A stretch of DNA of 64,000 nt from an uncultured Candidatus Saccharibacteria bacterium (GTDB lineage: Bacteria; Patescibacteriota; Minisyncoccia; UBA6257; 2-01-FULL-56-20). Made by a program: the position numbers and the translations under genes. The stretch spans positions 22,514 through 86,513 of the forward strand of contig CAYLWL010000002.1 of assembly GCA_964387675.1 (NCBI GenBank). The letters run 5' to 3'. A model generated the notes under the pieces. It saw only the letters and a program-made list of their open reading frames with translations, did not search any database and was not told where the DNA came from. Shown in pieces: positions 966 through 59,670 of this stretch (its first letter is position 1; each line of letters begins with the position of its first letter).

Positions 966-2210
966 ATGCGCGATATCAAATCTCTCAAGTCCCTTATGGA
1001 AAATCAGCTCGGACAGCCGTTCGAGAAGATTTCCGTGATCAATCTGGTGGATTTGCTTGTGGAGTACGCCTACAGCACGAAGGCCTCGGATATCCATATT
1101 CCACCCACGAGGGCTGGCTCGAGAATTCGCTTTCGCATCGACGGCCTGCTTCAGGATATTTTCGACAAGTCCAAAATTTCCAACGATCTGCATCAAGAAA
1201 TCATCGCGAGGATCAAAGTGCTGTCCGGTTTGAGGACGGACGAGCACTTTTTGCCGCAGGACGGAAGATTCAGGGTCAAAATCGAAGAGTTCGGCGATGT
1301 GGACATAAGAGTTTCCATCATGCCGACGTACTACGGCGAGAACGTGATCATGAGGGTCTTGGCGGAGAGCCAGAATTTCAAATTGGAGGACATGGGTTTT
1401 TCCCCAAACGACATTAAAAAAGTGGAAAGCGCGATCAGCAAATCCTTCGGGATGATTCTCGCGAACGGCCCCACGGGTTCGGGAAAAACCACCACGCTCT
1501 ACACGATTTTGCGGCGGCTCAACAGCCCGGAGGTCTCCATCATCACCATCGAGGACCCGATAGAGTATTCTCTTGACGGCACCACGCAGATTCAAATCAA
1601 CGAGCAGGTGGGGCTCACCTTCGCGAACGGTCTGCGATCCATTTTGCGCCAGGACCCGAACATCATCATGGTCGGCGAAATCCGCGACGAAGACACCGCG
1701 GCCATCGCCGTGAACGCTGCCCTTACGGGGCACTTGGTGCTCTCCACGCTCCACACGAACGACGCCGCCACCACATTCCCGCGGCTCCTTGATATGGGCG
1801 TGCCGCCGTTCCTCGTTGCTTCCACCGTGAACATCGCGACCGGCCAGCGGCTCGTGAGAACATTGTGCCAGGACTGCAAAACGAAGAGGGCATTGAAAGA
1901 CGAAGAAGTCAAAAGCTTATCGGAGCTTTTGCCGGAAATAGCGAAGATGGGCGAGAAAAACTTTTTCGCTCCGAATCCGAAAGGGTGCGACGCGTGCGGC
2001 CAGAGCGGATATCGGGGAAGGATCGGCATCCGTGAAGTGATCGAGGTGAACGAAGAAATCAGGCAGCTTGTGATGAATCGCGCCAACGCGACTCAGATCA
2101 AAGAAGCGGCGATTCGGAACGGGATGACGACGATGATAGAAGATGGTTTGCAAAAGGCGGCCAAAGGGCTGACTTCGATCGAAGAGATCATACGGATTAT
2201 ACATGAATAA
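966..2210 (+). CDS. pilB: type IV pilus assembly / type II secretion ATPase, PilB/GspE family (short form)
   Basis: Walker A GPTGSGKTTT, Asp box IIMVGEIRDEDTA, His box LVLSTLHTNDA, C-terminal Cys pairs CQDCK...CDACG. Overlaps pilC start by 8 nt. Confidence 0.85.
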   Translation: MRDIKSLKSLMENQLGQPFEKISVINLVDLLVEYAYSTKASDIHIPPTRAGSRIRFRIDGLLQDIFDKSKISNDLHQEIIARIKVLSGLRTDEHFLPQDGRFRVKIEEFGDVDIRVSIMPTYYGENVIMRVLAESQNFKLEDMGFSPNDIKKVESAISKSFGMILANGPTGSGKTTTLYTILRRLNSPEVSIITIEDPIEYSLDGTTQIQINEQVGLTFANGLRSILRQDPNIIMVGEIRDEDTAAIAVNAALTGHLVLSTLHTNDAATTFPRLLDMGVPPFLVASTVNIATGQRLVRTLCQDCKTKRALKDEEVKSLSELLPEIAKMGEKNFFAPNPKGCDACGQSGYRGRIGIREVIEVNEEIRQLVMNRANATQIKEAAIRNGMTTMIEDGLQKAAKGLTSIEEIIRIIHE

Positions 2211-3285
2211 GCTCAAGCGCTTTCTCATCAGCACGTTCGGGATCGGAGGAGTGCCGATCCAGGAAAAAATCAATTTTGCCCGCCACCTCTCGATCGTCAT
2301 CAAGGCCGGGCTTCCCATCCTCGAGGGCCTGCGTCTCATCAAACGACAGACCGCTTCGCGCGCCGTGGTTTCCGTTATTGATCAGGTGATTGTGGATGTG
2401 GGCAACGGGCAATTCTTGGCAACCAGCTTGTCGAGGTATCCCCATATTTTCGACGACTTTTTCATCAGCATCGTCCGGGTGGGCGAGACGAGCGGAACGC
2501 TGGCGCAGAATTTGGTGTATCTTGCCGATGAACTCAAAAAATCTCATGACTTAAGGAACAAGGTGCGCTCGGCGATGATTTACCCCGTTATCATTATGAT
2601 CGTCACGTCCGGCCTCGTTTCTTTTTTGGTGTTTTTCGCCTTTCCGAAAATTCTGCCCCTGTTCGCGAGTTTGCGGGTTGAATTGCCTGTCACGACCCGC
2701 GTCCTGATCGCTACTACGGCATTTTTCCTCGCGCACGGCGTCTCTGTCGTTGCGGGACTGGTCGCTTTCTTTGTGGCCCTTAGAATTCTACTGATACTTC
2801 GTCCCACGAAAATGATTTCCGACCGCCTACTCATCGCCACGCCCATCTTTTCCAAGATCATCATTGACGTGAACATGGCAAATTTCACGAGGGTGCTTTC
2901 GGTTCTACTGAAGGGCGGGATCAAGATCGTGGAAGCGGTGACCATCACCTCGCAAACGTTCAATAATCTTGTGTATCGCAGGGAGCTTGCCCGGGCCGCG
3001 GAAGGCATTCAAAAAGGGGATCAGTTGGCGAAGTATCTTGCCCATGATAAAAACATTTTCCCGATGTTGCTTTCGGGTCTCATCGAGATCGGAGAAAATA
3101 CGGGGAACTTGGAGGACAACCTGACATATTTGTCCGATTACTATCGCGAAGAGGCGGAACAGAGCATCAATACTTTAACCGCGCTTATCGAGCCCCTGCT
3201 TTTGCTCCTTATGGGAATGGTGGTGGGATTCGTCGCCATTTCAATCATTTCTCCCATCTATCAGATTACCCAAGGAGTGAGATGA
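2203..3285 (+). CDS. pilC: type IV pilus platform protein PilC/GspF family
   Basis: 360-aa polytopic membrane protein with two GspF-like halves (GLPILEGLRLI..., GGIKIVEAVTI...). Directly follows pilB. Confidence 0.8.
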   Translation: MNKLKRFLISTFGIGGVPIQEKINFARHLSIVIKAGLPILEGLRLIKRQTASRAVVSVIDQVIVDVGNGQFLATSLSRYPHIFDDFFISIVRVGETSGTLAQNLVYLADELKKSHDLRNKVRSAMIYPVIIMIVTSGLVSFLVFFAFPKILPLFASLRVELPVTTRVLIATTAFFLAHGVSVVAGLVAFFVALRILLILRPTKMISDRLLIATPIFSKIIIDVNMANFTRVLSVLLKGGIKIVEAVTITSQTFNNLVYRRELARAAEGIQKGDQLAKYLAHDKNIFPMLLSGLIEIGENTGNLEDNLTYLSDYYREEAEQSINTLTALIEPLLLLLMGMVVGFVAISIISPIYQITQGVR

Positions 3286-3743
3286 CGTTCGCTCGAAATA
3301 TCGAAATTTCGAAATATCGAGATGGTTTCACTTTGACGGAGGTTTTGATCGTTGTCGGGATCCTCGCGGTTGTTTTTGCCTTTGCGATCGGCGTCGGCAT
3401 CAATTTCTACGGCGGCCAAGCCGTTGTTTCGGAACGCGACACGCTCGTGAACGTGCTCCGGGCCGCGCGCGGCCGCGCCTTGAACAATTTCGACGAATCG
3501 AGCCACGGCGTTTTTATTGCCGCCGCGCAATACGTCCTTTTCGAGGGCAATTCGTACGCCAGCCGCAACCAGGATTTCGACTCCGTATTTCCGAGAGGGA
3601 AGGGGCTCACGATGAGCGGATTGTCGGAAGTCGTTTTCAACGCGCCGCAAGGCGACGCGAACGCTTCCGGCACCATAACCCTGTCGAACGACCTTGGCAA
3701 TGCTAAAATTAATATCAACAATGAAGGAAGAATTGATTGGTAA
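3282..3743 (+). CDS. prepilin-type N-terminal cleavage/methylation domain protein (pilin/pseudopilin)
   Basis: N-terminus MTFARNIEISKYRDG|FTLTEVLIVVGILAVVFAFAIG is a class III signal with G|FTLxE and a hydrophobic helix. Overlaps pilC stop by 4 nt. Confidence 0.8.
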   Translation: MTFARNIEISKYRDGFTLTEVLIVVGILAVVFAFAIGVGINFYGGQAVVSERDTLVNVLRAARGRALNNFDESSHGVFIAAAQYVLFEGNSYASRNQDFDSVFPRGKGLTMSGLSEVVFNAPQGDANASGTITLSNDLGNAKININNEGRIDW

Positions 3744-3744
3744 A

Positions 3745-3783
3745 TTATTAGAATCTAGAATCTAGAAAATAGAAAGTAGAATT
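3745..3783. repeat. TAGAA-family hairpin arm (left arm flanking four-helix-bundle gene copy 1)
   Basis: ttattagaatctagaatctagaaaatagaaagtagaatt. The inverted partner is at 4147-4188. Confidence 0.7.
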
Positions 3784-4128
3784 ATGAGTAATACAAAATC
3801 TTTTAAAGATTTAATTGTATGGCAGAAAGCGCGGAGTTTGGCGGTTGCGGTATATAAACTTTCTGAACAATTTCCTAACGTAGAGCTATATGGCCTAACA
3901 AGTCAAATGCGTCGCGCGGCCATTTCCATTTCTTCCAACATCGCCGAAAGTTACCACCGTTTTCATAGAAAAGAAAAACAGCAGTTTCTTTCTATCGCTT
4001 TTGGCTCCGGCTCGGAACTAGAAAGCCAAATAGAAATCGCCAAAGTTTTATTTCCAAAGCTGGATTATCGAGAAAGTGAAGAATTATTGTTGGAGGTTAT
4101 GAAAATACTAAATAATTTTCTACAATGA
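3784..4128 (+). CDS. four-helix-bundle protein (23S rRNA intervening-sequence protein / DGR Avd-like family), copy 1
   Basis: 114 aa. WQKARSLAVAVYKLSEQFPNVELYGLTSQMRRAAISISSNIAESYHRF matches the S23-ribosomal/IVS four-helix-bundle family. Flanked by inverted TAGAA repeats. Confidence 0.8.
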   Translation: MSNTKSFKDLIVWQKARSLAVAVYKLSEQFPNVELYGLTSQMRRAAISISSNIAESYHRFHRKEKQQFLSIAFGSGSELESQIEIAKVLFPKLDYRESEELLLEVMKILNNFLQ

Positions 4129-5558
4129 TCAAAATCGAAAAATTAAAAATAGTTCTTCTACTTTCTATTTTCTATTTTCTACCTTCTCGTAAGCGGGGGC
4201 AGTCCACGATTGAGATTTTGATCGCGGTGACGATTCTGACCGCGGTTTTGACGAGCGCCGCCGCGCTCATTTTCGGCAGCCAATCGCTCTCGGTTGATTC
4301 CGCGGAAAGTAATCAGGCATTGCGTCTCGCCGAACAGGGCTTGGAGGGCGTCAAAAATCAGGCCAGATACGACTTCCTCAACATCGTTTCGAGCACCGTG
4401 ACGCAGGGTGAGTTCACGAAAAACATCATTGTCTCGAATGTAGGCGCGAACACGAAGCAAGTGGTAAGCCGCGTTACGTGGAGCACCGATCCGCAGAGAA
4501 CCCAGCAAGTCGAACTCGTGACGCTTGTGACGGATTGGCGCGGCGTGCAGGACACCGGCGGAGACACGGGGAGCGGCGGCGGTGGCGGCGGCGCTTCTGG
4601 CGACTGGTGCAATCCCGCAACCCTCGGCACGATCGATTTGGGATCGGGTGAGTCGGCGACGGGCATCGATGTGATCGCAACAACGACCTATATGACGGCA
4701 GTCGCTTCCTCCCCGAGCAAGAAGGACTTTTTCATCGTTGATGTTTCCAATTCCAGCACTCCTTCCATTATCGGGTCCATAGACACCGGGCCGGGACTCA
4801 ATGCTCTGGACGTGACGGCAAACTACGCTTATGTCGCGAGCGACGACAGCTCCAAGCAATTCCAAGCCATCGACGTCAGCAACAAGACCAGCCCGGTTCT
4901 CGTTGCATCCACCACTCTTACGAGCAATTCCGCCGTTGGACGGAGTATTTTTTACCATAATCAAAAAGTATATATCGGCACGGACGACAATAGTGGAAAC
5001 GAATTCCAGATTATCGACGTGGCCACTCCCGCAACCCCCGTGATTTTGGGAAGAGCTTCTTTGGATGAAGATGTGAATTCCATTTACGTGAGCGGGAACA
5101 AGGCATATCTTGCAACATCCGATACGTCGAAAGACGTGCAGATTTTCGATGTGTCGACTTCATCCGCGCCCGCGCTTCTTGGCACGTATGACATTTCGGG
5201 TGCCGGAGAAACGAAATGGCTGTATGTGGTTGGCACGAAAATGTATGTGGGCAGAGAAACCGGAGGAGATGAACTTTATGTATTGGATATTACGAATGCC
5301 ACTTCGGTGTCGGTGTTGGGCCATAAGGCGATCGGCAAAACGGTGAACGCGATTACAGTGCGCGGCAATTACGCGTTCCTTGCCACCTCCGACCCGAACA
5401 ACGAGCTCAAGATATTCGACGTTTCCAATCTTTCAAATATCACTTCCTGCAGTAACTTCAACTTTCCCAACATCGCGACCGCCGTCGATTTCGACGCCAA
5501 TCTGGTGTACACCGCCGTGCGATCGAACGACGGCCTGCGCATCGTGACATCGCAATAA
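4125..5558 (+). CDS. prepilin-like N-terminus fused to an LVIVD-repeat beta-propeller domain protein
   Basis: N-terminal KRGQSTIEILIAVTILTAVLTSAAALIFG is a pilin-type G/x-T-x-E plus TM. A Gly-rich linker (GGDTGSGGGGGGASGD) is followed by at least six repeats of the pattern xxIxDVSNxSxPxxxG (FIVDVSNSSTPSIIGS, QAIDVSNKTSPVLVAS, QIIDVATPATPVILGR, QIFDVSTSSAPALLGT, YVLDITNATSVSVLGH, KIFDVSNLSNITSCS). These are typical of LVIVD repeats. True start codon uncertain. Confidence 0.65.
   Translation: MIKIEKLKIVLLLSIFYFLPSRKRGQSTIEILIAVTILTAVLTSAAALIFGSQSLSVDSAESNQALRLAEQGLEGVKNQARYDFLNIVSSTVTQGEFTKNIIVSNVGANTKQVVSRVTWSTDPQRTQQVELVTLVTDWRGVQDTGGDTGSGGGGGGASGDWCNPATLGTIDLGSGESATGIDVIATTTYMTAVASSPSKKDFFIVDVSNSSTPSIIGSIDTGPGLNALDVTANYAYVASDDSSKQFQAIDVSNKTSPVLVASTTLTSNSAVGRSIFYHNQKVYIGTDDNSGNEFQIIDVATPATPVILGRASLDEDVNSIYVSGNKAYLATSDTSKDVQIFDVSTSSAPALLGTYDISGAGETKWLYVVGTKMYVGRETGGDELYVLDITNATSVSVLGHKAIGKTVNAITVRGNYAFLATSDPNNELKIFDVSNLSNITSCSNFNFPNIATAVDFDANLVYTAVRSNDGLRIVTSQ
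4147..4188. repeat. TAGAA-family hairpin arm (right arm); also encodes N-terminus of the following pilin-like ORF
   Basis: tagttcttctactttctattttctattttctaccttctcg is the reverse-complement partner of 3745-3783. It translates in frame as VLLLSIFYFLPSR preceding KRG|QSTIE. Confidence 0.7.
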
Positions 5559-5560
5559 AA

Positions 5561-5600
5561 TTAGAATTTAGTAGCTAGTATCTAGAAACTAGAATGCGAG
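5561..5600. repeat. TAGAA-family hairpin arm
   Basis: ttagaatttagtagctagtatctagaaactagaatgcgag. Partner at 5635-5668. Confidence 0.65.
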
Positions 5601-5624
5601 AAATAACCAACGCAAACGCAATTT

Positions 5625-6155
5625 ATGAATAAAATACTAGATTCTAGATTCCAGATTCTAGATTCTCGCAGAGGGTTTACCTTGATGGAGACCTTGATTT
5701 ACATCGCTCTTTTTTCCGTCATTACGAGCTATGTCCTTGGCGTGTTCTATCAACTCCTCGGCAGCCGCAACCAAAATCGCGACAGGACGGAAGTTGACGC
5801 GGAAGCGAACTTTCTCATGCAGAAACTGCGGTGGGCAATGAGCGGCGTCCAAACCGTCAACCAGCCGGCGACAGGCGCCACTTCGACGACGCTATCGGTC
5901 ACAAAGTACAATTTCGCGCAGAACCCGATCGTATTCGACCTTGATTCCAGTACCCTCCGAATGGCAAAGGGTGGGGGAGCGGCGGTAATTTTAAACAATA
6001 GCCGCGTGGGAGTGGGCCAGCTGACATTCGAGCGCCTGGCTCCGGTGAGTAACGCTCCGGAAGGAGTTACCATAACATTGTCGGTATCGTCCCTTGATGT
6101 TGAGCGGCCGGTCGTCGCTTCCACCACTATCGTGGACACCATTTATTTAAGGTAA
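5625..6155 (+). CDS. prepilin-type N-terminal cleavage/methylation domain protein (pseudopilin)
   Basis: MNKILDSRFQILDSRRG|FTLMETLIYIALFSVITSYVLG is a canonical class III signal peptide. Confidence 0.8.
   Translation: MNKILDSRFQILDSRRGFTLMETLIYIALFSVITSYVLGVFYQLLGSRNQNRDRTEVDAEANFLMQKLRWAMSGVQTVNQPATGATSTTLSVTKYNFAQNPIVFDLDSSTLRMAKGGGAAVILNNSRVGVGQLTFERLAPVSNAPEGVTITLSVSSLDVERPVVASTTIVDTIYLR
5635..5668. repeat. TAGAA-family hairpin arm that encodes the pilin leader peptide
   Basis: tactagattctagattccagattctagattctcg translates as ILDSRFQILDSR immediately before RG|FTLMETLI. Confidence 0.65.
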
Positions 6156-6207
6156 TAAGCTAGCTTTTAGGTGTTAGCTGTTAGGTTTTAGAAAACAAAT
6201 AAATAAA

Positions 6208-6648
6208 ATGAGAGAAAAGTTCTATCATATCGGCAACCTACTAAAAGCTATAAGCTATAAGCTAAAAGCCCGGGTTGGCTACATCGGCATCGTGTCGGCG
6301 CTTATCATATCGGCCGTTGTGGTTCTGATTATGGTCGCGGTGGGGCAGATTTCGTTCTTGAACCGCATCAACATTTCCGACACCCACTTAAAAAAGAAAA
6401 GCCGGGCGCTCGCGGAGGGGTGCGTCGACACAGCGCTCTTGAAGCTCGCGTCGAACGCTTCCTACGCCGGCAACGAAACCATCACTGTTGCGAGCGATAC
6501 ATGCAAAATCGTTTCCGTGGTTTCGTCGAGTACGGGAAAGATCATTTCTGCCCAGGGCAAGTTCCTCGGCGCGGTGACGGATGTCAAGGCGACCGTTGAC
6601 ACCAACACCTTCTCGATCGTGGGCTGGGAAGAGGTGAGGAGTTTTTGA
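6208..6648 (+). CDS. hypothetical membrane protein in pilus operon (possible minor pilin/PilX-like)
   Basis: 146 aa with one N-terminal TM helix (IGIVSALIISAVVVLIMVAVG). No recognisable motif. Confidence 0.4.
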   Translation: MREKFYHIGNLLKAISYKLKARVGYIGIVSALIISAVVVLIMVAVGQISFLNRINISDTHLKKKSRALAEGCVDTALLKLASNASYAGNETITVASDTCKIVSVVSSSTGKIISAQGKFLGAVTDVKATVDTNTFSIVGWEEVRSF

Positions 6649-6691
6649 TTAGAAAGTAGAATTTAGAAAATAGAAAGTAGAATCTGGAAAA
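6649..6691. repeat. TAGAA-family hairpin arm
   Basis: ttagaaagtagaatttagaaaatagaaagtagaatctggaaaa. Partner at 6710-6747. Confidence 0.65.
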
Positions 6692-6693
6692 CT

Positions 6694-7191
6694 ATGAAAA
6701 ATTTAAAAACAACTTCTATTTTCTATTTTCTAGATTCTAGATTCTCGAATAAGGGTTTCACTTTGATAGAGGTCGTCATATCGGTGGCAATCATTACGCT
6801 CCTTACGGTTGCTGCCATTGTTATTCTCGATCCCGCTCGGCAGTTTGCCAAATCGAGAAACACACAGCGCTGGTCGGATGTGAATGTGATTTTGAATGCG
6901 GTTGGGCAAAACACCGTTGACAACCGCGGAACTTTTTCGTGCAGTTCCGGCGGGATTCCCACGACTACGACGAGGATGGCGTCCAGCAGTCCGAACTACA
7001 ATATCGCGCCGTGCCTTGTAGCGACCTATTTAAGCGCCTTGCCGTTCGATCCGGCAACGAGCGGCGCGAAGTGGACGAGCGTAACCGATTACGACACCGC
7101 TTATAACATCCTGCGAAACGCCACAACCGGCCGCGTGACGATTTCCGCTCCGGCGGCCGAACTTGGGGAGAGCGTTACGGTCACGAGGTAG
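6694..7191 (+). CDS. prepilin-type N-terminal cleavage/methylation domain protein (pilin)
   Basis: MKNLKTTSIFYFLDSRFSNKG|FTLIEVVISVAIITLLTVAAIVIL. Confidence 0.8.
   Translation: MKNLKTTSIFYFLDSRFSNKGFTLIEVVISVAIITLLTVAAIVILDPARQFAKSRNTQRWSDVNVILNAVGQNTVDNRGTFSCSSGGIPTTTTRMASSSPNYNIAPCLVATYLSALPFDPATSGAKWTSVTDYDTAYNILRNATTGRVTISAPAAELGESVTVTR
6710..6747. repeat. TAGAA-family hairpin arm encoding pilin leader
   Basis: aacttctattttctattttctagattctagattctcg translates as TSIFYFLDSRFS before NKG|FTLIEV. Confidence 0.65.
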
Positions 7192-7195
7192 GGTC

Positions 7196-7356
7196 GGTGC
7201 GCTCCGCGCCGTCCTTTCGGAAACAGCATAATTTTCTTCCAGCGAGAAAATTTGCTTCGCTCTTGGTCCGCCAGGTCCGATTGTCCGATTACAATCGGAC
7301 CACCAAGCTGGCGGACCTCCGAGATGTTCCTCAAGAACGGCGCGGAGCGCACCATG
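7196..7356. repeat. nested inverted-repeat structured element between convergent genes (likely bidirectional terminator or structured RNA)
   Basis: Outer pair ggtgcgctccgcgccg (7196-7211) / cggcgcggagcgcacc (7341-7356). Inner pairs ggtccgccag/ctggcggacc and gtccgattgt..acaatcggac. Confidence 0.6.
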
Positions 7357-7411
7357 CCTATCGCTTACATGTGGATTGATTATTGAGGTCTAACAAAAAA
7401 TGAAATGTTTC

Positions 7412-9398: not shown

Positions 9399-10502
9399 TT
9401 AGGACAAGTGTTCTATTATTGCTATTTCCAGAGGTACGCTTGCGAACGGCGAGTAGCGCATTTCCGAATATGCGCGGATGAGGGATTTTATCAGGCGAAT
9501 TGCCGATTCGGTTTCGAGCGAGGCGGACAGTTTTTTTATCTTTTCGATTTCGTCCGAAGTCATTTCGCCGCCGAACGATTTTTCGAGGGCGGGGTTCAAC
9601 TTAAGCGTAAGCACCTTTCTTAGATAGTGGATCAGGTCTTTGGTGAGTTGCACTACATTGTGTCCCTCTTCGTTTAGTTCTTCGAGAAAGCCCAAGGCGC
9701 CTTGCAAATCTTTTTTCACGATGAATTCCGAAAGTCCGTGCACTTTTTTGAGGCCCACCCGGCCGGTTGTCCGCTCGACGGTTTTGAGGTCGATCGTTCC
9801 GCCCAAAGATCGCATTTGATCGAGCAGGGACTCGGCGTCGCGTAAGCTTCCTTCTCCAGCCGCCGCGATGAGTTCCAGGGCCGCCGCATCGACATCGATC
9901 TTTTCCGCCTGCGCGATCATGGCAAGTTTCTCGATGATTTTGACCTTCGGGAGTTTCTTGAAAACGAATCGTTGCGTTCGGGACGTGATCGTGGGAGGCA
10001 ACTTTTCGTATTCGGTGGTGGCAAGCACGAGAACCGCGTGCGACGGCGGTTCTTCGAGCGTTTTGAGAAGCGCGTTGAAAGCCGGGCCGGTCAACATATG
10101 CGCCTCGTCGATGATGTAGACCTTGTAGTCGGCCGACGAAGGAGACGTTTTGATGCTGTCTTTGAGGTCGCGGATTTCGTCGATGCCGCGGTTCGAGGCG
10201 GCGTCTATCTCGATCACGTCGAAAGAGTTTTGGTTGTCGATCTCGGTGCAGTGCCGGCAGGCGTTGCAGGGTTCGCCTTGGGCTCTGAACTTTTCATCGT
10301 CGCGGCGTTTTTCGCAGTTTAAGAGTTTAGCAATCAGCCGCGCGGTGGTGGTTTTTCCGGTTCCGCGAGGACCATAAAACAAATAAGCATGGCCAATGCG
10401 GTTGTTCTTGGCCGCGTTCTTCAAAATCAGCGCGTTCGTTTCTTGTCCCAAAAGCTCGTCAAGTTTTTTGGGACGGTATTTGCGGTAAAGTGCGAGGGCC
10501 AT
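9399..10502 (-). CDS. dnaX: DNA polymerase III subunit gamma/tau (short form)
   Basis: YLFYGPRGTGKTTTARLIAKLLNC Walker A, zinc module CEKRRDDEKFRAQGEPCNACRHC, DEAH-like IIDEAHML, SRT sensor TSRTQRF. Confidence 0.9.
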   Translation of the reverse strand: MALALYRKYRPKKLDELLGQETNALILKNAAKNNRIGHAYLFYGPRGTGKTTTARLIAKLLNCEKRRDDEKFRAQGEPCNACRHCTEIDNQNSFDVIEIDAASNRGIDEIRDLKDSIKTSPSSADYKVYIIDEAHMLTGPAFNALLKTLEEPPSHAVLVLATTEYEKLPPTITSRTQRFVFKKLPKVKIIEKLAMIAQAEKIDVDAAALELIAAAGEGSLRDAESLLDQMRSLGGTIDLKTVERTTGRVGLKKVHGLSEFIVKKDLQGALGFLEELNEEGHNVVQLTKDLIHYLRKVLTLKLNPALEKSFGGEMTSDEIEKIKKLSASLETESAIRLIKSLIRAYSEMRYSPFASVPLEIAIIEHLS

Positions 10503-10560: not shown

Positions 10561-11871
10561 ATGAGGTTGCGGGTTATTTTGGGAATAGTTGCTCTCGGCG
10601 CCATATTTTTTTTGGTTTTTGTGCCGCGCGTGGTTATTATCGCGCCCGTTGAACTTGCGAAAGTCGCCGTGAAATCGGCCGCTTCCGTTCTCCCCGGCAT
10701 TCCGGAAGCGATCGTTCCAGAGTCGAAACAAGGCCAGTCGAAAATATCGGGAACATCGGATTTGCCCAATCAGCCGCCGCTCGCAAACCCGCCGGATGTC
10801 GCAAAGGGGATCTATGTGACCGGTTGGTCGGCGGGTTCGCAGTCGAGAATAAGCTCGCTCATCGCGCTTGTGAAGCGCACGGAAGTAAACGCGATGGTGG
10901 TGGATATCAAGGATTATTCGGGCAATGTTTCGTACAGAACGGGGCTTCCGGAAGTTGTCGCGGCGGGCGCGGAAGGAGAAATCCGCGTCGCTCAGCCGAA
11001 TGCCCTCATCAAACGGCTTCACGACGAGCATATCTACATCATCGGGCGCATCACCGTGTTCCAGGATCCCATTTTGGCGAAGGCGCATCCCGAGTGGGCG
11101 CTTCAAAACAAAGTGACCGGCAAAACATGGACAGATAGCAAAAAACTTTCCTGGATGGATGCGGCCGCCAAGCCCGTTTGGGATTATACTATTGCTATCG
11201 CCAAGGATGCTTTCGCGCGCGGCTTCGACGAAATTCAATTCGATTATGTGCGGTTCGCCTCCGACGGCGCGCTCGGAGAGATCGATTATCCGTTTTGGGA
11301 CGCGAAAACGCCGCGGCACAAAGTCATCGCCGAGTTTTTCAAGTATCTGCGGGACAGCTTGCCGGGCAAGAAGATTTCCGCCGATCTTTTCGGTCTTGCG
11401 GCAGTTGATACCTGGGATGACCTGGGAATAGGCCAGGTTATTGAAGACGCCTACAAAAACTTCGATTACGTTTCGCCGATGGTGTATCCTTCGCACTTCG
11501 CCGCGGGAACGCTTGGCTATAAAAGCCCCGCCCAGCATCCGTACGAAATCGTAAAGTATTCGATGGAGCAGGCGCTCGCGAGGTTAGCAAAGAGCAAAGA
11601 GCAAAGAGCAAATAGTTCTTCTACTATTATTATCACAACATCATCCGATCAATTCGCTATCGGCCCTTTGCCCTTCGCTGCGAAGTTACGCCCGTGGCTT
11701 CAGGACTTCAATCTCGGAGCAACCTATAACGCGGAGATGGTGCGCAAGCAGATCCAGGCGACCTATGACGTTTTCCTGAACGGCACTTCGAGCGATCCTT
11801 CCAGATTCGGCGGCTGGATACTCTGGGATCCCGCGAATACGTACACGGAAGGAGCGTTGGAGCGAGGATGA
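10561..11871 (+). CDS. secreted/membrane-anchored hypothetical protein, possibly GH-like TIM-barrel (DUF4015/GHL10-type) family
   Basis: N-terminal TM/signal (ILGIVALGAIFFLVF). Motif block GIYVTGWSAGS...VNAMVVDIKDYSGNVSY recalls the COG1306 putative glycoside hydrolase family. Contains the in-frame repeat insertion LAKSKEQRANSSSTIIITTSS (11581-11640). Confidence 0.4.
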   Translation: MRLRVILGIVALGAIFFLVFVPRVVIIAPVELAKVAVKSAASVLPGIPEAIVPESKQGQSKISGTSDLPNQPPLANPPDVAKGIYVTGWSAGSQSRISSLIALVKRTEVNAMVVDIKDYSGNVSYRTGLPEVVAAGAEGEIRVAQPNALIKRLHDEHIYIIGRITVFQDPILAKAHPEWALQNKVTGKTWTDSKKLSWMDAAAKPVWDYTIAIAKDAFARGFDEIQFDYVRFASDGALGEIDYPFWDAKTPRHKVIAEFFKYLRDSLPGKKISADLFGLAAVDTWDDLGIGQVIEDAYKNFDYVSPMVYPSHFAAGTLGYKSPAQHPYEIVKYSMEQALARLAKSKEQRANSSSTIIITTSSDQFAIGPLPFAAKLRPWLQDFNLGATYNAEMVRKQIQATYDVFLNGTSSDPSRFGGWILWDPANTYTEGALERG

Positions 11872-11875
11872 TACT

Positions 11876-12619
11876 TTGAAACACATGACACAAACATACG
11901 AACTAAAGCTCGAAAAATTCAGCGGACCGCTTGAAAAACTCCTCGAATTGATCGAAGAGAAAAAGCTTCAGATTGCCGAAATCAGCTTGGCTCAAGTTAC
12001 GGATGATTTTTTGAAGTATTTTAAGGCGCTTACCGATCTCGAGCGGGATTTGCATCTTGTGGCGGATTTTATTTCTATCGCAAGCAAGCTGATCCTTATA
12101 AAGTCAAAGTTCTTACTGCCGGATTTGACGCTTACGCCGGATGAAGAGCAGGGCATCAAAGACCTTGAGAAGCGCCTCAAAATGTATCAAGAACTCAAGC
12201 CGGTGTTGAAGATTCTCGAGAAGCTTTGGCAGGGAGCGGAACGGGAATTCGGCCGGGAATACTTTTTGAGCAAGGGCTACGTATCGGGCGGAGATGCCCA
12301 TTTTGTTTTTTACCCGGGCAAGGGGCTGTATACGCAAGCTCTCTTCGAAGCGGCAAAAAAGCTTTTCGACGCGCTCCGCGTGGAGGAGCTCGAAACGAAA
12401 ACAATCAAAGAAAAGATCATCAGTATTGAAGAAAAGATTGGGGAGGTGATCAAAAGGATTGAGAACGAATTAGAGATGAACTTTTCCAATCTGTCGAGCA
12501 AAAAATCCCGATCGGAAATCGTAGTCATCTTCCTCGCTATTTTGCACCTGGCTCGCGAGCAGCTCATATATCTTGAGCAATCGGAGCATTTCTCTGATAT
12601 AATCGTTAGAAAGAAATGA
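11876..12619 (+). CDS. scpA: segregation and condensation protein A
   Basis: LEKFSGPLEKLLELIEEKKLQIAEISLAQVTDDFLKYF matches the ScpA N-terminal signature. Followed by scpB. Confidence 0.8.
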   Translation: MKHMTQTYELKLEKFSGPLEKLLELIEEKKLQIAEISLAQVTDDFLKYFKALTDLERDLHLVADFISIASKLILIKSKFLLPDLTLTPDEEQGIKDLEKRLKMYQELKPVLKILEKLWQGAEREFGREYFLSKGYVSGGDAHFVFYPGKGLYTQALFEAAKKLFDALRVEELETKTIKEKIISIEEKIGEVIKRIENELEMNFSNLSSKKSRSEIVVIFLAILHLAREQLIYLEQSEHFSDIIVRKK

Positions 12620-12650
12620 GATATGAGATATGAGAGATGAGGTCATAAAC
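12606..12650. repeat. ATGAGA-family hairpin arm (left arm flanking four-helix-bundle gene copy 2)
   Basis: agaaagaaatgagatatgagatatgagagatgaggtc. Provides the ATG of the 4HB ORF. Confidence 0.7.
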
Positions 12651-13004
12651 GAAGAAAAGTTTATTTTCGAGGATTTAAGGGTGTATCATAGAGCGTTGCA
12701 GCTTGCCGTTGAGCTTACTAAAATTGCAACAAAACTCCCCCACAGTTACTCGAGGATACGAGACCAGTTAATCGGGGCAGTTATTTCTATCCCATTAAAT
12801 CTTGCCGAAGGATCAGGTAGGTTGGGTGAAAAGGATAAAAAGAACTTCTATAAATTTAGTCGCTCTTCGGCATTTGAACTGATTCCAATTATTGATATAA
12901 TTTACCAATTAGAGCTTATCAACAAAGAGAAAAGAAATAATATTCGCCGCGAAGTTGTAGAACTTTCGCGTATCATTTCTGCTTTAATAAAAAAATCGTC
13001 CTAA
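12630..13004 (+). CDS. four-helix-bundle protein (23S rRNA IVS protein / Avd-like), copy 2
   Basis: KFIFEDLRVYHRALQLAVELTKIATKLPHSYSRIRDQLIGAVISIPLNLAEGSGR. Paralog of the 28266-28637 copy (about 60-65% identity by eye). Confidence 0.8.
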   Translation: MRDEVINEEKFIFEDLRVYHRALQLAVELTKIATKLPHSYSRIRDQLIGAVISIPLNLAEGSGRLGEKDKKNFYKFSRSSAFELIPIIDIIYQLELINKEKRNNIRREVVELSRIISALIKKSS

Positions 13005-13040
13005 TTTCTCATTTCTCATGTCTAATTTCTCAATAGAAAA
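13000..13040. repeat. ATGAGA-family hairpin arm (right arm); overlaps scpB start
   Basis: cctaatttctcatttctcatgtctaatttctcaatag. ATG TCT AAT TTC TCA = MSNFS of ScpB. Confidence 0.7.
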
Positions 13041-15227: not shown

Positions 15228-15235
15228 AGAAAAAA

Positions 15236-15332
15236 GAAATGAGATATGAGAAACGAGGAACGAAAAGGAGTTCCCGATTGCACGAAACGTTCGTAGTTCC
15301 CAATCTCTCATTTCTAATTTCTCATCTCTAGA
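15236..15332. repeat. ATGAGA-family ORF-less hairpin element
   Basis: gaaatgagatatgagaaacgaggaacg ... caatctctcatttctaatttctcatctctag inverted arms around a 38-nt loop. Confidence 0.75.
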
Positions 15333-16402: not shown

Positions 16403-16467
16403 GAATCATTAAATTAAAATCATTTCCGTTATAACATAATATTATGTTATAACGGAAATGATTTTGT
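16403..16467. terminator. perfect long palindrome after mraY (putative terminator/regulatory hairpin)
   Basis: aatcatttccgttataacataat|attatgttataacggaaatgatt followed by ttgtgg. Confidence 0.55.
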
Positions 16468-18512: not shown

Positions 18513-18621
18513 TTTACACCCCTCTATATTACTTTTTGCGCTGCGTGTATTCTATGTGTTTGAAAATAATTTGTCAAACGTCGCGCGGAGATGGTATTAT
18601 GTTTGAGAAAATGCCCGGGAG

Positions 18622-18685
18622 TCCTGCCTGCCGGCAGGCAAGGCCTGTCTGCCGGCAGGCAGGCCTGCCTACCGGCAGACAGGGA
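18622..18685. repeat. GC-rich palindromic repeat (GCCTGCCGGCAGGCAGG units)
   Basis: cctgcctgccggcaggcaaggcctgtctgccggcaggcaggcctgcctaccggcagacaggg. Same family at 54726-54768. Confidence 0.75.
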
Positions 18686-25874: not shown

Positions 25875-26228
25875 ATGAACATGTTGAGCAAGGACGGCAT
25901 TTTGAAATTCAGGATCGTTTACTCAATGTTTCTTTTTGATTTCGCTTTGGTTCTCGGCGGTGTGCTGTGGGCTTATTTCTCTCTACGAAACGCGAGCGGG
26001 CCGGTGGTCATCCACTTTAACGACATTGCCGGCATCAACCGTATCGGAAGTTTCTGGGACGTGGTTGGAATCGGCGTAACGGGCCTTGCCATAGTCGTTC
26101 TTAACTTATTTATAGCTCTCGAGTTCGAAAAAAGAGACCGATTTTGGGGGAAGCTGGCGGCCGCTTTCACGGTCGTTGTGAGCATCTTGATTTTTATAGC
26201 GTTAGCGGCTATCATATCTGTAAACTAA
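25875..26228 (+). CDS. hypothetical small membrane protein
   Basis: 117 aa with 3 predicted TM helices. Confidence 0.4.
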   Translation: MNMLSKDGILKFRIVYSMFLFDFALVLGGVLWAYFSLRNASGPVVIHFNDIAGINRIGSFWDVVGIGVTGLAIVVLNLFIALEFEKRDRFWGKLAAAFTVVVSILIFIALAAIISVN

Positions 26229-26309
26229 GAAAGTAGAAATGAGATATGAGAAATGAGGAACGCGTGCCCCTAGCCCCTAATCTCTCATTTCTAATTTCTC
26301 GTCTCTAAA
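26226..26309. repeat. ATGAGA-family ORF-less hairpin element
   Basis: aagaaagtagaaatgagatatgagaaatgaggaacg cgtgcccctagcccc taatctctcatttctaatttctcgtctctaaac. Confidence 0.75.
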
Positions 26310-27817: not shown

Positions 27818-28234
27818 TTGCCATTAGCCGCAACTATGGACCAACCCTCTCAATCATTTGAACATGAAGCCCTCGAGGCCGATATTAAAGCCCTTGCGCA
27901 GGAAGTCGAGAAACATCGCGAACTTCCGGAGAATAAAGGCGTGAGCGGGCAGGAGTTGTTAAAGAAAGCAATCCGTGCCTTGCCGCCGGTTTCAACCGCG
28001 ACAGAGCCCGTCTCAAAACCCTCACGGCCGAGTCCGCTCCCGCAGTACGCGCAAAGCGCCTCGCCGGAAGTCCGTCTTGAAATCGAGTACTTGATTGACT
28101 TGGCTTTCCACGCCGGTATCGGTAAGGCCTCGGCGGAAGCGAAGAAATCCCCCGATTTCGTGCAAGACGCTTTTCATGACGCCTTGGCCGGAAAACTGTA
28201 CCCGATGTTTCAGGAGAGGGGAATACTTAAATAG
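27818..28234 (+). CDS. hypothetical protein
   Basis: 138-aa ORF, acidic helical. Preceded by a ctttgctctttgcc repeat. Confidence 0.35.
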   Translation: MPLAATMDQPSQSFEHEALEADIKALAQEVEKHRELPENKGVSGQELLKKAIRALPPVSTATEPVSKPSRPSPLPQYAQSASPEVRLEIEYLIDLAFHAGIGKASAEAKKSPDFVQDAFHDALAGKLYPMFQERGILK

Positions 28235-28265
28235 AGATTAGAGATGAGAAATGAGATATTAGGAT
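28222..28265. repeat. ATGAGA-family hairpin arm (left arm flanking four-helix-bundle copy 3)
   Basis: tagagattagagatgagaaatgagatattaggatatgagc. Confidence 0.7.
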
Positions 28266-28637
28266 ATGAGCAATGAAAAATTTATTTTTGAAGATTTAAG
28301 GGTTTATCACGGGGCATTAAAACTTTCAGTGGAGCTTACTAAGCTGGCTACGAAATTTCCACACGACTATTCGAGAATACAAAATCAATTAATTGGAGCA
28401 GCTATTTCTGTTCCCTTGAATCTCGCCGAGGGTTCTGGAAGGGAAAGCGATAAGGATAAAAAGAATTTTTATAGAATTAGTAGATCATCTATTTTTGAAC
28501 TCGTGCCTCTTATTGATATAATTTACGAACTAGGACTCATAGGAAGCGACAAGCGAGATGAAATTCGTCACGAAGTTGCGGAACTTTCGCGAATTGTTTC
28601 CACCTTAATGAAAAACAAAGTTTCTCAAAAGTCCTAA
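28266..28637 (+). CDS. four-helix-bundle protein (23S rRNA IVS protein / Avd-like), copy 3
   Basis: MSNEKFIFEDLRVYHGALKLSVELTKLATKFPHDYSRIQNQLIGAAISVPLNLAEGSGR. Confidence 0.8.
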   Translation: MSNEKFIFEDLRVYHGALKLSVELTKLATKFPHDYSRIQNQLIGAAISVPLNLAEGSGRESDKDKKNFYRISRSSIFELVPLIDIIYELGLIGSDKRDEIRHEVAELSRIVSTLMKNKVSQKS

Positions 28638-28662
28638 TTTCTCATTTCTAATATCTCATCTC
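28625..28662. repeat. ATGAGA-family hairpin arm (right arm)
   Basis: cctaatttctcatttctaatatctcatctctaaat. The same right arm recurs at 59630-59665 and 36765-36780. Confidence 0.7.
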
Positions 28663-28667
28663 TAAAT

Positions 28668-44983: not shown

Positions 44984-45022
44984 TTAGAATCCAGAATCTA
45001 GTGGCTAGAATCTAGAATTTTA
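44984..45022. repeat. TAGAA-family repeat
   Basis: cattagaatccagaatctagtggctagaatctagaattt. Confidence 0.65.
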
Positions 45023-49420: not shown

Positions 49421-50002
49421 TTAACTTTTTCTTGCAACGACAACGGCAACCATAGTAAGGATGCTGACGAAAAGAGGAAACCAAACTTGTGAAAACCATG
49501 GAACCGGAATCAAGAAAAGGACGTCGGGGGTAAGGAGCGATGAAGGCCAACGAACCGTTGCCCACAAGCCGACGTAGTAAAAAATGTCCCACGCGGCGAA
49601 CGTCCAGAGAAATATCGCCCACCGCTCCCGTAAAGACGCAGTCGCGAGAAGAGCAACGACAAGTAGCATAATCATCGTGGCGGCTTCCCGAAAGAATTCC
49701 AGCACCAGCAAGCTCCTGGGCAGTTCGCCGAGAATTTGGGATTGCTGGTAGATGCCGGCAGAAAGCCGGGCCACATCGGAAAGCGTGCCGCCGTATCCGG
49801 GAAGGAGTCCTACCGCCGCGCGGAGATATACCACAACCGATGCTTCCACGAATCCGAAAGCGATTCCGAACAAACCGGCAAAGGTGAGCGTCCATATTGA
49901 TATGCCGAGTCCTTCCTTTCGCCATAAAGCGTACGCGACAAAGGGAACGGCAAAAAGGAGATTTACCCACCACGGTTTGGCGAAAAGTACGAGTTCGTTC
50001 AT
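49421..50002 (-). CDS. hypothetical polytopic membrane protein
   Basis: About 190 aa from MNELVLF, 6 TM helices. Abuts the topA stop. Confidence 0.4.
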   Translation of the reverse strand: MNELVLFAKPWWVNLLFAVPFVAYALWRKEGLGISIWTLTFAGLFGIAFGFVEASVVVYLRAAVGLLPGYGGTLSDVARLSAGIYQQSQILGELPRSLLVLEFFREAATMIMLLVVALLATASLRERWAIFLWTFAAWDIFYYVGLWATVRWPSSLLTPDVLFLIPVPWFSQVWFPLFVSILTMVAVVVARKS

Positions 50003-52383: not shown

Positions 52384-52814
52384 ATTTTTAAGTATTTTTG
52401 GACCCCTTCGAGCCAACCGCCCGAAAAGTACTTTTCCGGTTTGAAGTTTTTCACGGAAATCCACAAATACCGAGAGTGTCTTTTGGAAAGCCGGATAGTG
52501 CCGCCAATATATTTTGCCCGATAGCCGACGGCAAAAATTCTCGCCTTTTTGCGTCCGCCTGGCATTCTTTCCTTTCTTTCGTGCCTCATAAAAACCACGG
52601 GTTTTCCAAGGTCGTATTTAATACGAGAACCGAGTTCCTCCTTTACTTTTCTTTGCAAGATTTTCTCTAATGGAGTATTAAATTCGTTGGGTAAGATTCT
52701 CCCGCCCGGTATGTCCCAATGTTTAAAACTATCTTCAAAAATAAAGAGTTTGCCCCCTTTTCTTAAGAAAACTTTGACCGCGACATAATAAACATCTTTC
52801 GCGTTATTTTTCAT
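52371..52814 (-). CDS. NUDIX hydrolase
   Basis: WDIPGGRILPNEFNTPLEKILQRKVKEELG is a canonical Nudix box. Confidence 0.75.
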   Translation of the reverse strand: MKNNAKDVYYVAVKVFLRKGGKLFIFEDSFKHWDIPGGRILPNEFNTPLEKILQRKVKEELGSRIKYDLGKPVVFMRHERKERMPGGRKKARIFAVGYRAKYIGGTIRLSKRHSRYLWISVKNFKPEKYFSGGWLEGVQKYLKIAKK

Positions 52815-54725: not shown

Positions 54726-54768
54726 CAGTGGCAGACCTGCCTGCCGGCAGGCAGGTCTGCCTGCCGGC
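54726..54768. repeat. GC-rich palindromic repeat (same family as 18622-18685)
   Basis: cctgcctgccggcaggcaggtctgcctgccggcaggcagggcg. Confidence 0.75.
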
Positions 54769-54828
54769 AGGCAGGGCGCTTGTTGACCCCGCACCTTCGG
54801 AGGCGTATTATTTTAGGAATCGATGCAA

Positions 54829-58590: not shown

Positions 58591-58668
58591 TATCAAGTGT
58601 CAAGTATCACGTATCAAGCGGTAAAAAATCTTGACACATGACACCTGATACATGACACATCAACCCGT
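58591..58668. repeat. GTGTCA/TGACAC-family inverted-repeat hairpin between mraZ and rsmH
   Basis: tatcaagtgtcaagtatcacgtatcaag...cttgacacatgacacctgatacatgacacatca. The right arm encodes MTHQ of RsmH. Confidence 0.7.
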
Positions 58669-59566: not shown

Positions 59567-59665
59567 TTAGAAATGAGAAATGAGACATGAGACATGAGGA
59601 GCAAGAAACGAGACGTTGGCGATGCTGAACGACCTAATTTCTCATTTCTAATATCTCATCTCTAT
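59567..59665. repeat. ATGAGA-family ORF-less hairpin element between rsmH and ftsL
   Basis: ttagaaatgagaaatgagacatgagacatgagg...gaacgacctaatttctcatttctaatatctcatctcta. Confidence 0.75.
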
Positions 59666-59670
59666 TTATT

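What the first reader, a model, noticed from the sequence alone, without database searches (positions are those of the whole stretch)
5559..6780. Type IV pilin leader peptides are encoded by the arms of TAGAA-family hairpin repeats
Each prepilin-type gene in the operon begins inside a repeat arm. At 5635-5668 the arm translates to ILDSRFQILDSR before RG|FTLMETLI. At 6710-6747 it gives SIFYFLDSRFS before NKG|FTLIEV. At 4147-4188 it gives LLSIFYFLPSR before KRG|QSTIE. The upstream arm of each hairpin lies in the preceding intergenic space, so every pilin start is embedded in a stem-loop. This could couple pilin translation to hairpin melting, or it could reflect element insertion that recruited new leader sequences.
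Basis: seen in the sequence. Interest (0 to 1): 0.65.

Follow-up and report, generated by a model that had tools for sequence, protein, structure and literature searches.

The report
Pilin leaders encoded by repeat-element hairpin arms
In this groundwater CPR bacterium the cleaved-off leader peptides of the pilus proteins really are encoded by one arm of 7-base-repeat hairpins, but those hairpins belong to a genome-wide family of selfish-looking repeat elements, so the pilin link is most likely tolerated insertion, not a dedicated pilin switch.

Summary
In the type IV pilus operon of this Candidatus Liptonbacteria MAG, all five pilin-like genes carry a short tandem array in the leader-coding segment. 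In four of them it is the 3' arm of a hairpin whose 5' arm follows the upstream stop codon, and the only canonical in-frame start codon lies between the arms.

The hairpins are not pilin-specific. They are inverted arrays of 7-nt repeats, found at 15 of 36 other same-strand gene junctions in the window. Three copies enclose a PF05635 (23S rRNA IVS protein, four-helix-bundle) gene. All 11 such genes inspected, in nine genomes, are flanked by these arrays. The TAGAA arms are the arms of a protein type that is 79-88% identical across CPR.

Before cytoplasmic proteins the 3' arm stops 0-5 nt before the ATG. Before prepilins and signal-peptide-like proteins it is read through. The same layout occurs in related species and in an Omnitrophota pilus operon. 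The closest array-free relative has junction gaps of 0-5 nt and short leaders.

Best reading: IVS-like palindromic elements are tolerated inside cleavable leaders and supply the start codon and leader. A regulatory role for the hairpins is not excluded.

The parts
3282..3743 (+). Prepilin gene 1, leader MTFARNIEISKYRDG|FTLTE. An 8-nt palindromic tandem array at 3293-3320 lies inside the leader-coding segment. AAGGAG sits 7 nt before the ATG.
3745..3783 (+). 5' arm (TAGAATC/TAGAAAG 7-nt units) of the IVP1 element. It starts 2 nt after the stop codon of gene 3282.
3784..4128 (+). IVP1: a PF05635 (23S rRNA IVS protein) / TIGR02436 four-helix-bundle gene sitting between the two TAGAA arms. Its stop codon overlaps the ATG of gene 4125 (ATGA).
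4125..5558 (+). PilV-like pilin with an LVIVD beta-propeller. The leader is 4125-4199. The 3' arm (TTCTAxx units, ending TTCTCG) at 4150-4190 is translated as LLLSIFYFLPSR.
5563..5595 (+). 5' arm of the hairpin at gene 5625. It starts 4 nt after the upstream stop codon.
5625..6155 (+). Minor-pilin gene. The ATG lies in the loop. The 3' arm at 5634-5669, (CTAGATT)n, is translated as ILDSRFQILDSR. The one unit whose TAG would be in frame reads CAG instead.
6161..6191 (+). 5' arm of a different unit family (TAGCTTT/TAGGTGT) for gene 6208.
6208..6648 (+). PilX-like pseudopilin (..KLKARVG|YIGIVSALII, no Glu5). The 3' arm at 6241-6269, (CTAAAAG/CTATAAG)n, is translated as LLKAISYKLKA.
6650..6691 (+). 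5' arm (TAGAAAG units, with stop codons in all three frames) for gene 6694. It starts 1 nt after the upstream stop codon.
6694..7191 (+). GspG/PilA-like pilin. The ATG lies in a 31-nt A-rich loop. The 3' arm at 6714-6747 is translated as SIFYFLDSRFS.
12600..13032 (+). IVP2 element between scpA and scpB: 5' arm (ATGAGAx units) at 12600-12641, IVP2 gene at 12630-13004, 3' arm at 13004-13032.
28229..28665 (+). IVP3 element: 5' arm at 28229-28262, IVP3 gene at 28266-28637, 3' arm at 28634-28665, ending 4 nt before the next ATG.
15228..15330 (+). Hairpin without an IVP gene, made of ATGAGAx units, lying entirely between the upstream stop codon and the ATG of the MraY-like gene.
26228..26308 (+). 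Hairpin without an IVP gene, made of ATGAGAx units, ending 4 nt before the rplU ATG.
59567..59667 (+). Hairpin without an IVP gene, made of ATGAGAx units, ending 3 nt before the ATG of the FtsL-like gene. A neighbouring hairpin of AGTATCA units lies at 58589-58660.

Best explanation
The 'TAGAA hairpins' are the inverted 7-nt-array arms of an IVS-like palindromic repeat element. Full copies carry a PF05635 four-helix-bundle gene (IVP, also called S23p) in the loop. Copies without that gene look like deletion derivatives.

These elements occupy essentially all the unconstrained sequence at same-strand gene junctions. The purine-rich 5' arm, rich in stop codons, begins 0-7 nt after the upstream stop codon. 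The pyrimidine-rich 3' arm runs up to the first constrained base of the next gene.

For cytoplasmic proteins that base is the start codon. Prepilins, and Sec-type secreted proteins in other genomes, lose their N-terminal leader after export. That leader is almost free to vary. In those genes translation starts at an ATG inside the element's A-rich loop (in IVP-bearing copies often the ATGA overlapping the IVP stop codon). It reads through the 3' arm and joins the ancestral gene 2-4 codons before Gly-1.

Shown: the arms are real, they belong to this family, they are in frame and free of stop codons, and the layout recurs across species and phyla. Inferred: that they are translated, that they arose by insertion, and that they have no dedicated pilus function.
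For: Family membership:
- The window holds about 45 period-7 tandem arrays and few of other periods.
- Arrays lie at 6 of 6 pilus-operon junctions and at 15 of 36 other same-strand junctions.
- In non-pilin genes the 3' arm ends 3-5 nt before the ATG.

Link to IVP genes:
- Three PF05635 genes each lie between complementary arms, with duplex energies of -31 to -34 kcal/mol.
- Eight more IVP genes in eight other genomes are also flanked by 7-nt arrays.
- Four IVP1-type copies in other CPR genomes carry the same TAGAA arms, and three of the four begin with the window's GTAGAATTATG.
- The 3' arms share the terminus TTCTCG.
- IVP1-type proteins are 79-88% identical across CPR, against 55-69% for PilC.

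Evidence that the arms are translated:
- Only one canonical in-frame start codon exists, and it is upstream of the arm, in genes 4125, 5625 and 6694 and in most relatives.
- Gene 3282 has a Shine-Dalgarno sequence.
- The two other frames of the arms are closed by TAG or TAA. The gene frame is open because exactly the in-frame unit is a variant.

The rule that only cleavable leaders are invaded:
- Arms are read through in prepilins (window, L014, L018, L038-L040) and in signal-peptide-like proteins (L042, L043, L045; the L042 protein has Big_6 and dockerin-like domains).
- Arms stop before the ATG of dnaX (L044), CTP synthase (L047), prgI (L046), scpB, rplU and others.

Evidence for insertion:
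- The closest relative by PilC identity (L017, 69%) has no such arrays, junction gaps of 0-5 nt and leaders of 10-16 aa.
- Distant orthologues of gene 4125 have leaders of 3-13 aa. Close orthologues have leaders of 15-37 aa with 7-aa periodicity.
- 7-nt arrays are also tolerated in frame inside TopA.
Against: - Arrays are enriched in pilus operons: 6 of 6 against 15 of 36 junctions in the window (Fisher p = 0.02). In L014 the arrays cluster in the pilus operon and are absent from the 7.7 kb upstream. This hints at something beyond neutral tolerance.
- In pilin genes with hairpins the start codon is in the loop, or in a few relatives within the 5' arm, never downstream of a wholly upstream hairpin. 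A purely neutral model would predict a mixture.
- Arm sequences are 90-100% identical between species whose flanking proteins are about 50% identical. This implies constraint or ongoing copying.
- No transposase, target-site duplication or mobility mechanism is known for IVP elements.
- No expression, 5'-end or proteomic data were available.
Confidence: 0.6

Rival explanations
1. The hairpins are functional mRNA elements. Each stem places the start of the next gene in a loop next to the upstream stop codon. A terminating ribosome melts the 5' arm, which gives translational coupling. Alternatively the long stems are RNase III sites, as in rRNA IVS and Correia elements. Either way the minor pilins would be expressed in fixed ratios or switched off together.
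For: - The stems are stable: -24 to -35 kcal/mol, with 26 contiguous base pairs at gene 6694.
- The 5' arm starts 0-7 nt after the upstream stop codon, within a ribosome footprint.
- The orientation relative to transcription is constant.
- Canonical Shine-Dalgarno sequences are absent in the loops, and many genes look leaderless.
- The layout recurs in relatives and in Omnitrophota minor pilins. The Omnitrophota major pilin keeps a Shine-Dalgarno sequence and a short leader.
- Arrays are enriched in pilus operons.
- RNase III cleaves IVS stems and Correia TIRs (PMC4990558, PMC10969869).
Against: - The AUG lies in an open loop and is not sequestered.
- RNase III cutting in the stem would sever the loop AUG from the pilin body.
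- The same hairpins flank housekeeping genes.
- The closest relative manages with none.
- Complementarity between the arms is inherent to a palindromic element, so it is not evidence of selection on RNA structure. The shared mismatches in the TAGCTTT-family cassette are not compensatory.
- No rnc gene was found in the window, so this could not be tested.
Confidence: 0.2
2. The arrays are contingency loci. Slipped-strand gain or loss of one 7-nt unit inside the leader-coding arm shifts the frame and switches individual pilins on or off. This would resemble the CTCTT repeats in Neisseria opa signal-peptide regions.
For: - The unit length is not a multiple of 3.
- The arrays sit in the one coding segment that tolerates length changes.
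- Leader lengths and unit counts differ between species.
- L014 has a perfect 4.7-unit tract in a leader.
Against: - The window's arrays are short and imperfect, with 2-3 identical units.
- Six assemblies from different sequencing runs are 100% identical.
- The same arrays lie in frame in TopA and next to essential genes, where frequent slippage would be lethal.
- Slippage does not explain the complementary 5' arm.
Confidence: 0.07
3. The arm translation is incidental. The true starts lie downstream of the arms, as NCBI annotated gene 5625 (starting at METLI...), or at a non-canonical codon.
For: - NCBI MBI4087504.1 begins at Met21.
- A few relatives have alternative in-frame starts 4-8 codons before the Gly (L014 gene 11007, L018 gene 5222, L038 genes 2422 and 4836).
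- Gene 6208 has in-frame GTG codons after its Gly.
Against: - The in-frame conserved xRG|FTLxE would then be untranslated.
- No ATG, GTG or TTG lies between the arm and Gly-1 in genes 4125, 5625 and 6694.
- In-frame stop codons are specifically avoided in the arms.
- Gene 3282 has a Shine-Dalgarno sequence plus ATG upstream of its array.
- G|Y[IV]A..SALII is conserved in orthologues of gene 6208.
Confidence: 0.04

Closest known systems
23S rRNA intervening sequences (IVS) with an S23p/PF05635 ORF (Coxiella, Leptospira)
   Same: - A long stem is formed by inverted termini.
- A roughly 115-125-aa PF05635 four-helix-bundle ORF sits in the loop.
- They are regarded as selfish, horizontally acquired elements (PMC4990558).
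   Different: - Here the elements lie in mRNA operon junctions, not in rRNA helix 45.
- The arms are tandem 7-nt arrays.
- Many copies lack the ORF.
- The 3' arm can be part of the next gene's reading frame.
- Excision by RNase III is untested.
Intergenic heptanucleotide direct repeats (TAACTGA repeats of Beggiatoaceae, Cyanobacteria and Bacteroidetes; cyanobacterial STRR)
   Same: - Tandem arrays of 2-6 units of 7 nt.
- They end a few nt before start codons and overlap upstream stop codons.
- Forward units carry stop codons in all frames, and reverse units are occasionally translated.
- The genes concerned are poor in Shine-Dalgarno sequences (PMC4679880).
- One orthologue's leader (P0022, VISYQSSVIS) even matches the SVISYQL peptide encoded by the reverse TAACTGA unit.
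   Different: - Here the arrays come as inverted pairs that form hairpins, with several unit families.
- They are linked to IVP genes.
- They invade leader-coding regions systematically.
Palindromic repeat elements in transcripts and ORFs (Rickettsia RPE; Correia/ERIC MITEs)
   Same: - Multi-copy palindromes are tolerated in frame inside proteins (RPE).
- They fold in mRNAs, where RNase III can cut them (Correia) (PMC10969869).
   Different: - There is no sequence relation.
- The arms are 7-nt arrays.
- Insertion is restricted to junctions, cleavable leaders and a few protein loops.
- The element donates the start codon.
Repeat tracts in signal-peptide coding regions of phase-variable surface genes (Neisseria opa CTCTT, pilC poly-G; my own knowledge)
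   Same: - Repeats whose unit is not a multiple of 3 lie in the cleaved leader of surface-structure genes.
   Different: - The tracts here are short and imperfect.
- They are paired with a complementary upstream arm.
- No length polymorphism was seen.

Membership tests
Type IV prepilin (class III signal peptide) | Gly-1 / Phe+1 / Glu+5 motif followed by a hydrophobic helix (Pfam N_methyl, TIGR02532) | tested here: met
   Genes 3282, 5625 and 6694 reach the thresholds. Gene 4125 has G|QSTIE with only a weak PilV hit. Gene 6208 lacks Glu5, so it is a pseudopilin-like protein.
Type IV prepilin (class III signal peptide) | Leader removed by a prepilin peptidase (PilD) | not testable with these tools
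   There are no proteomic data. PilD was not looked for outside the operon.
rRNA IVS element | Inserted in a 23S or 16S rRNA helix | tested here: not met
   All copies lie between protein-coding genes. Rfam finds only tRNAs in the window.
rRNA IVS element | Inverted termini forming a long stem around a PF05635 ORF | tested here: met
   This holds for 3 of 3 window IVP genes and 7 of 8 in other genomes; in L045 the IVP gene lies between two same-orientation arrays. The hairpins at genes 5625, 6208 and 6694 have no ORF.
rRNA IVS element | Excised by RNase III without religation | not testable with these tools
   No RNA data are available. No rnc signature was found in the window.
Heptanucleotide intergenic repeats (TAACTGA/STRR type) | Tandem 7-nt units, 2-6 copies, abutting start and stop codons | tested here: met
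Heptanucleotide intergenic repeats (TAACTGA/STRR type) | Unit sequence TAACTGA, occurring as direct repeats only | tested here: not met
   The units are TAGAAxx, ATGAGAx, CTAAAAG, AGTATCA and others, mostly as inverted pairs.
Phase-variable simple-sequence contingency locus | Tract-length polymorphism within a population | tested here: not met
   Six contigs from different runs are 100% identical. Reads were not examined, so this is a weak test.
MITE | Terminal inverted repeats plus a target-site duplication and a cognate transposase | tested here: inconclusive
   Inverted arms are present. By eye no target-site duplication is evident at 5559/5669 or 6649/6747. No transposase has been identified.

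The most novel reading that the evidence does not exclude
PF05635 four-helix-bundle (IVP/S23p) genes, together with matching inverted 7-nt arrays, form a previously undescribed class of mobile IVS-like elements. They colonise operon junctions across CPR and at least one other phylum. Each IVP subtype keeps its own arm sequence: IVP1 with TAGAA, IVP2/3 with ATGAGA, the Omnitrophota copy with CGTATAT. This suggests that the protein recognises the arms. The elements donate start codons and leader or signal peptides to secreted proteins. In pilus operons the resulting hairpins may be co-opted to control minor-pilin expression.
Probability: 0.3. Interest if true: 0.75.

Novelty: new variant of a known kind. 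Interest (0 to 1): 0.55.

Why it matters
- It explains an odd feature of CPR pilins: long, low-complexity leaders with 7-aa periodicity. It also shows that gene callers can mis-start these genes, as NCBI dropped RG|FTL from gene 5625.
- It ties together two long-unexplained items, the very large PF05635 '23S rRNA IVS protein' family and 7-nt tandem repeats next to start codons, into one element architecture that can be tested.
- It gives a clean natural example of selfish DNA being translated only where the peptide is later cleaved off.
- If the hairpins prove functional, they would be a Shine-Dalgarno-independent way of organising operon translation in organisms with reduced genomes.

Tried and rejected
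- Rfam scan of the window: only tRNAs, and no family for the hairpins.
- Consensus promoter and terminator scan: nothing convincing. The hairpins have no U-tract, so they are not intrinsic terminators.
- Strain-level polymorphism: six contigs are identical. Contig ends inside arrays are adapter or low-coverage breaks, not variants.
- 90%-identity cluster members: only start-site variants of the same genes.
- RNase III signature in the window: none found.
- Covariation analysis across hairpins was not attempted formally. Tandem arrays have no unique alignment register, and a palindromic origin gives complementarity without selection.
- The idea that the TAGAAT units act as -10 boxes giving leaderless transcripts was considered. 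The spacing fits only loosely at gene 6694, so it was left as speculation.
- Literature searches found no description of IVP genes with 7-nt-array arms, or of repeat-encoded prepilin leaders. Absence from this library does not prove novelty.
Full report
**Source and operon.** The window is part of contig JACQKV010000013.1 of a Candidatus Liptonbacteria MAG (CPR/Parcubacteria). The + strand at 966-7191 is a type IV pilus operon:
- PilB, 966-2210.
- PilC, 2203-3285.
- Five pilin-like genes starting at 3282, 4125, 5625, 6208 and 6694.
- A PF05635 '23S rRNA intervening sequence protein' (four-helix-bundle) gene, here called IVP1, inserted at 3784-4128.

**Check of the observation.**
- The inverted repeats exist: 5563-5595/5634-5666, 6651-6682/6714-6745, and a third pair with a different unit, 6163-6191/6241-6269, at gene 6208.
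- They fold at -24 to -35 kcal/mol, with z-scores of -2.9 to -6.5 against dinucleotide shuffles.
- Leader DNA is far more complementary to the upstream 90 nt than to shuffled versions of it, with z-scores of -2.5 to -7.6.
- For gene 4125 the partner arm is at 3745-3783, on the far side of IVP1. The duplex energy is -33.9 kcal/mol.
- Gene 3282 carries an 8-nt palindromic array inside its leader.
- Six independent assemblies are 100% identical over the region.

**Are the arms translated?**
- Genes 4125, 5625 and 6694 each have a single canonical in-frame start codon. It lies upstream of the 3' arm.
- The conserved xRG|FTLxE follows in frame.
- Gene 3282 has AAGGAG 7 nt before its ATG, so its array is certainly inside the reading frame.
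- In the arrays at 5637, 6714 and 6241, the two non-gene frames are closed by TAG or TAA. The gene frame is open because exactly the unit whose stop codon would fall in frame is a variant: CCAGATT, TTCTATT and CTATAAG respectively.
- NCBI started gene 5625 at Met21, which discards RG|FTL. I regard that as a mis-call.

**What the hairpins are.** TRF finds about 45 period-7 arrays in 64 kb, and few of other periods. They lie at 6 of 6 pilus-operon junctions and at 15 of 36 other same-strand junctions.

The typical layout is:
- A purine-rich 5' arm begins 0-7 nt after the upstream stop codon, sometimes supplying that stop codon.
- A pyrimidine-rich 3' arm ends 3-5 nt before the next ATG. Examples are the genes for rplU, an MraY-like protein, an FtsL-like protein, RsmH and FtsI.

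All three PF05635 genes in the window sit between complementary arms: IVP1 with TAGAA units, IVP2 and IVP3 with ATGAGA units.

I inspected eight further IVP genes in eight other genomes, and all are flanked by 7-nt arrays:
- Four IVP1-type copies in other CPR lineages carry the same TAGAA arms. Three of the four begin with the window's GTAGAATTATG, and the 3' terminus is TTCTCG.
- Three IVP2-type copies: two have ATGAGA arms, one of them at the same scpA-scpB junction as in the window, and the third has ATAGARA arms.
- One copy lies in an Omnitrophota pilus operon and has CGTATAT/ACGATAT arms.

IVP1-type proteins are 79-88% identical across CPR and have more than 6000 homologues. PilC of the nearest relatives is only 55-69% identical. 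The architecture, a stem of inverted termini with an S23p ORF in the loop, is that of the rRNA IVS (PMC4990558), but here it lies in operon junctions.

**Comparative evidence on pilin genes.** The same layout is found in several other loci: a 5' arm after the stop codon, the start codon usually in an A-rich loop (in two L038 genes within the 5' arm), and a 3' arm read as leader up to 2-4 codons before Gly-1.
- L018, L038, L039 and L040 show it with various units.
- Three minor pilins of the Omnitrophota locus L014 show it, with leaders such as ..RYTIYDIRYTKCG|FTLLE. The L014 major pilin keeps a Shine-Dalgarno sequence and a 4-aa leader.
- A TAGCTTT/CTAAAAG cassette is 90-97% identical between window gene 6208 and the non-orthologous first pilin of L040.
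- Close orthologues of gene 4125 have leaders of 15-37 aa with 7-aa periodicity (SIFYFL, MRHETRN x2, QKSEVKN...). Distant orthologues have leaders of 3-13 aa.
- The closest relative by PilC identity, L017, has no such arrays, junction gaps of 0-5 nt and leaders of 10-16 aa.

**Which downstream genes are invaded.**
- Downstream of IVP elements in other genomes, proteins with signal-peptide-like N-termini start inside the element and read through the TTCTA arm, giving FYFLLST-type hydrophobic stretches. This is seen in L042, L043 and L045. In L042 and L043 the start is the ATGA overlapping the IVP stop codon. The L042 protein has Ig-like and dockerin-like domains.
- Cytoplasmic proteins (DnaX, CTP synthase and ScpB) and a PrgI-like protein start just after the arm.
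- 7-nt arrays are also tolerated in frame in TopA (KEQRAKSK, DKQLAISDKQLIGD) and in a DUF4015 protein.

**Interpretation.** I favour the view that these are IVS-like palindromic 7-nt-array elements that persist wherever sequence is unconstrained. The cleaved prepilin leader is such a place. The element supplies the start codon and most of the leader, and only the last basic residues plus the Gly remain ancestral.

Two known phenomena resemble it:
- Rickettsia RPEs, which are translated in frame (PMC10969869).
- TAACTGA 7-nt repeats abutting start codons (PMC4679880).

Four points argue against pure neutrality:
- The modest enrichment in pilus operons (p = 0.02; clustering in L014).
- The start codon is in the loop, or within the 5' arm, in every pilin gene with a hairpin, never downstream of the whole hairpin.
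- Arm sequences are conserved across species.
- Orientation relative to transcription is constant.

A role in translational coupling or RNase III processing therefore remains a live rival. It is weakened because the AUG is exposed and not sequestered, because a cut in the stem would behead the pilin mRNA, and because the same hairpins flank housekeeping genes. Phase variation by unit slippage is unlikely, given the imperfect short tracts, the identical assemblies and the arrays inside essential genes.

**Novelty.** I found no description of IVP genes with matching 7-nt-array arms, or of prepilin leaders encoded by repeat arms, in the searchable literature. I class this as a new variant of known kinds (IVS, MITE/RPE, heptanucleotide repeats). 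It is not a new regulatory principle.

Noticed in passing
window 49999-52464 (-) and 10561-11871 (+): 7-nt arrays are translated in frame inside topoisomerase I (KEQRAKSK twice, and DKQLAISDKQLIGD) and inside a DUF4015 protein (AKSKEQRA). These arrays are 100% perfect, with 3.7-4.3 units.
   Followed up: partly
window 18617-18683 and 54730-54775: A GC-rich 20-nt palindromic repeat, CCTGCCTGCCGGCAGGCAGG, in tandem or palindromic copies. This is a separate repeat family, and one copy lies just upstream of a tRNA.
   Followed up: no
window 7189-7360: A GC-rich inverted repeat (34-nt arms, 82% complementary, 104 nt apart) between the convergent last pilin gene and the 638-aa gene. There is no Rfam hit.
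   Followed up: no
window 16416-16465: A perfect 25+25-nt palindrome, AAAATCATTTCCGTTATAACATAAT/ATTATGTTATAACGGAAATGATTTT, in a 183-nt gap.
   Followed up: no
window 966, 9399-10502 (-), 10561, 52811-53887 (-): TATAAT-like boxes lie 7-8 nt before the ATG, which suggests frequent leaderless mRNAs in this organism. Many internal operon genes lack a Shine-Dalgarno sequence.
   Followed up: no
window 28668-31040: A 790-aa PurD-like (GARS) ORF carries a faint LAGLIDADG hit in the public annotation. This may be an intein.
   Followed up: no
window 5625-5687: The NCBI protein MBI4087504.1 starts at Met21 (METLIY...), omitting the leader and RG|FTL. Gene callers mis-start these hairpin-embedded pilins.
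   Followed up: yes
L014 9556-10005; window 3745-4190: In both the Liptonbacteria window and an Omnitrophota MAG, an IVP gene sits immediately upstream of the pilV-like minor pilin. The two IVPs are 55% identical, whereas the PilC proteins are 28% identical.
   Followed up: partly
window 61610-61644, 44985-45018, 62923-62966: Lone 7-nt arrays with no inverted partner abut start or stop codons: (ATCAGTA)5 between two genes, (ATTCTAG)n 4 nt before a minus-strand ATG, and (AGTATCT)4 supplying the C-terminus and stop codon of a MurF-like gene.
   Followed up: partly
protein P0022 (orthologue of gene 4125): The leader MTKKVISYQSSVISS.. matches the SVISYQL peptide that the reverse TAACTGA repeat encodes in Beggiatoaceae and cyanobacteria (PMC4679880).
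   Followed up: no
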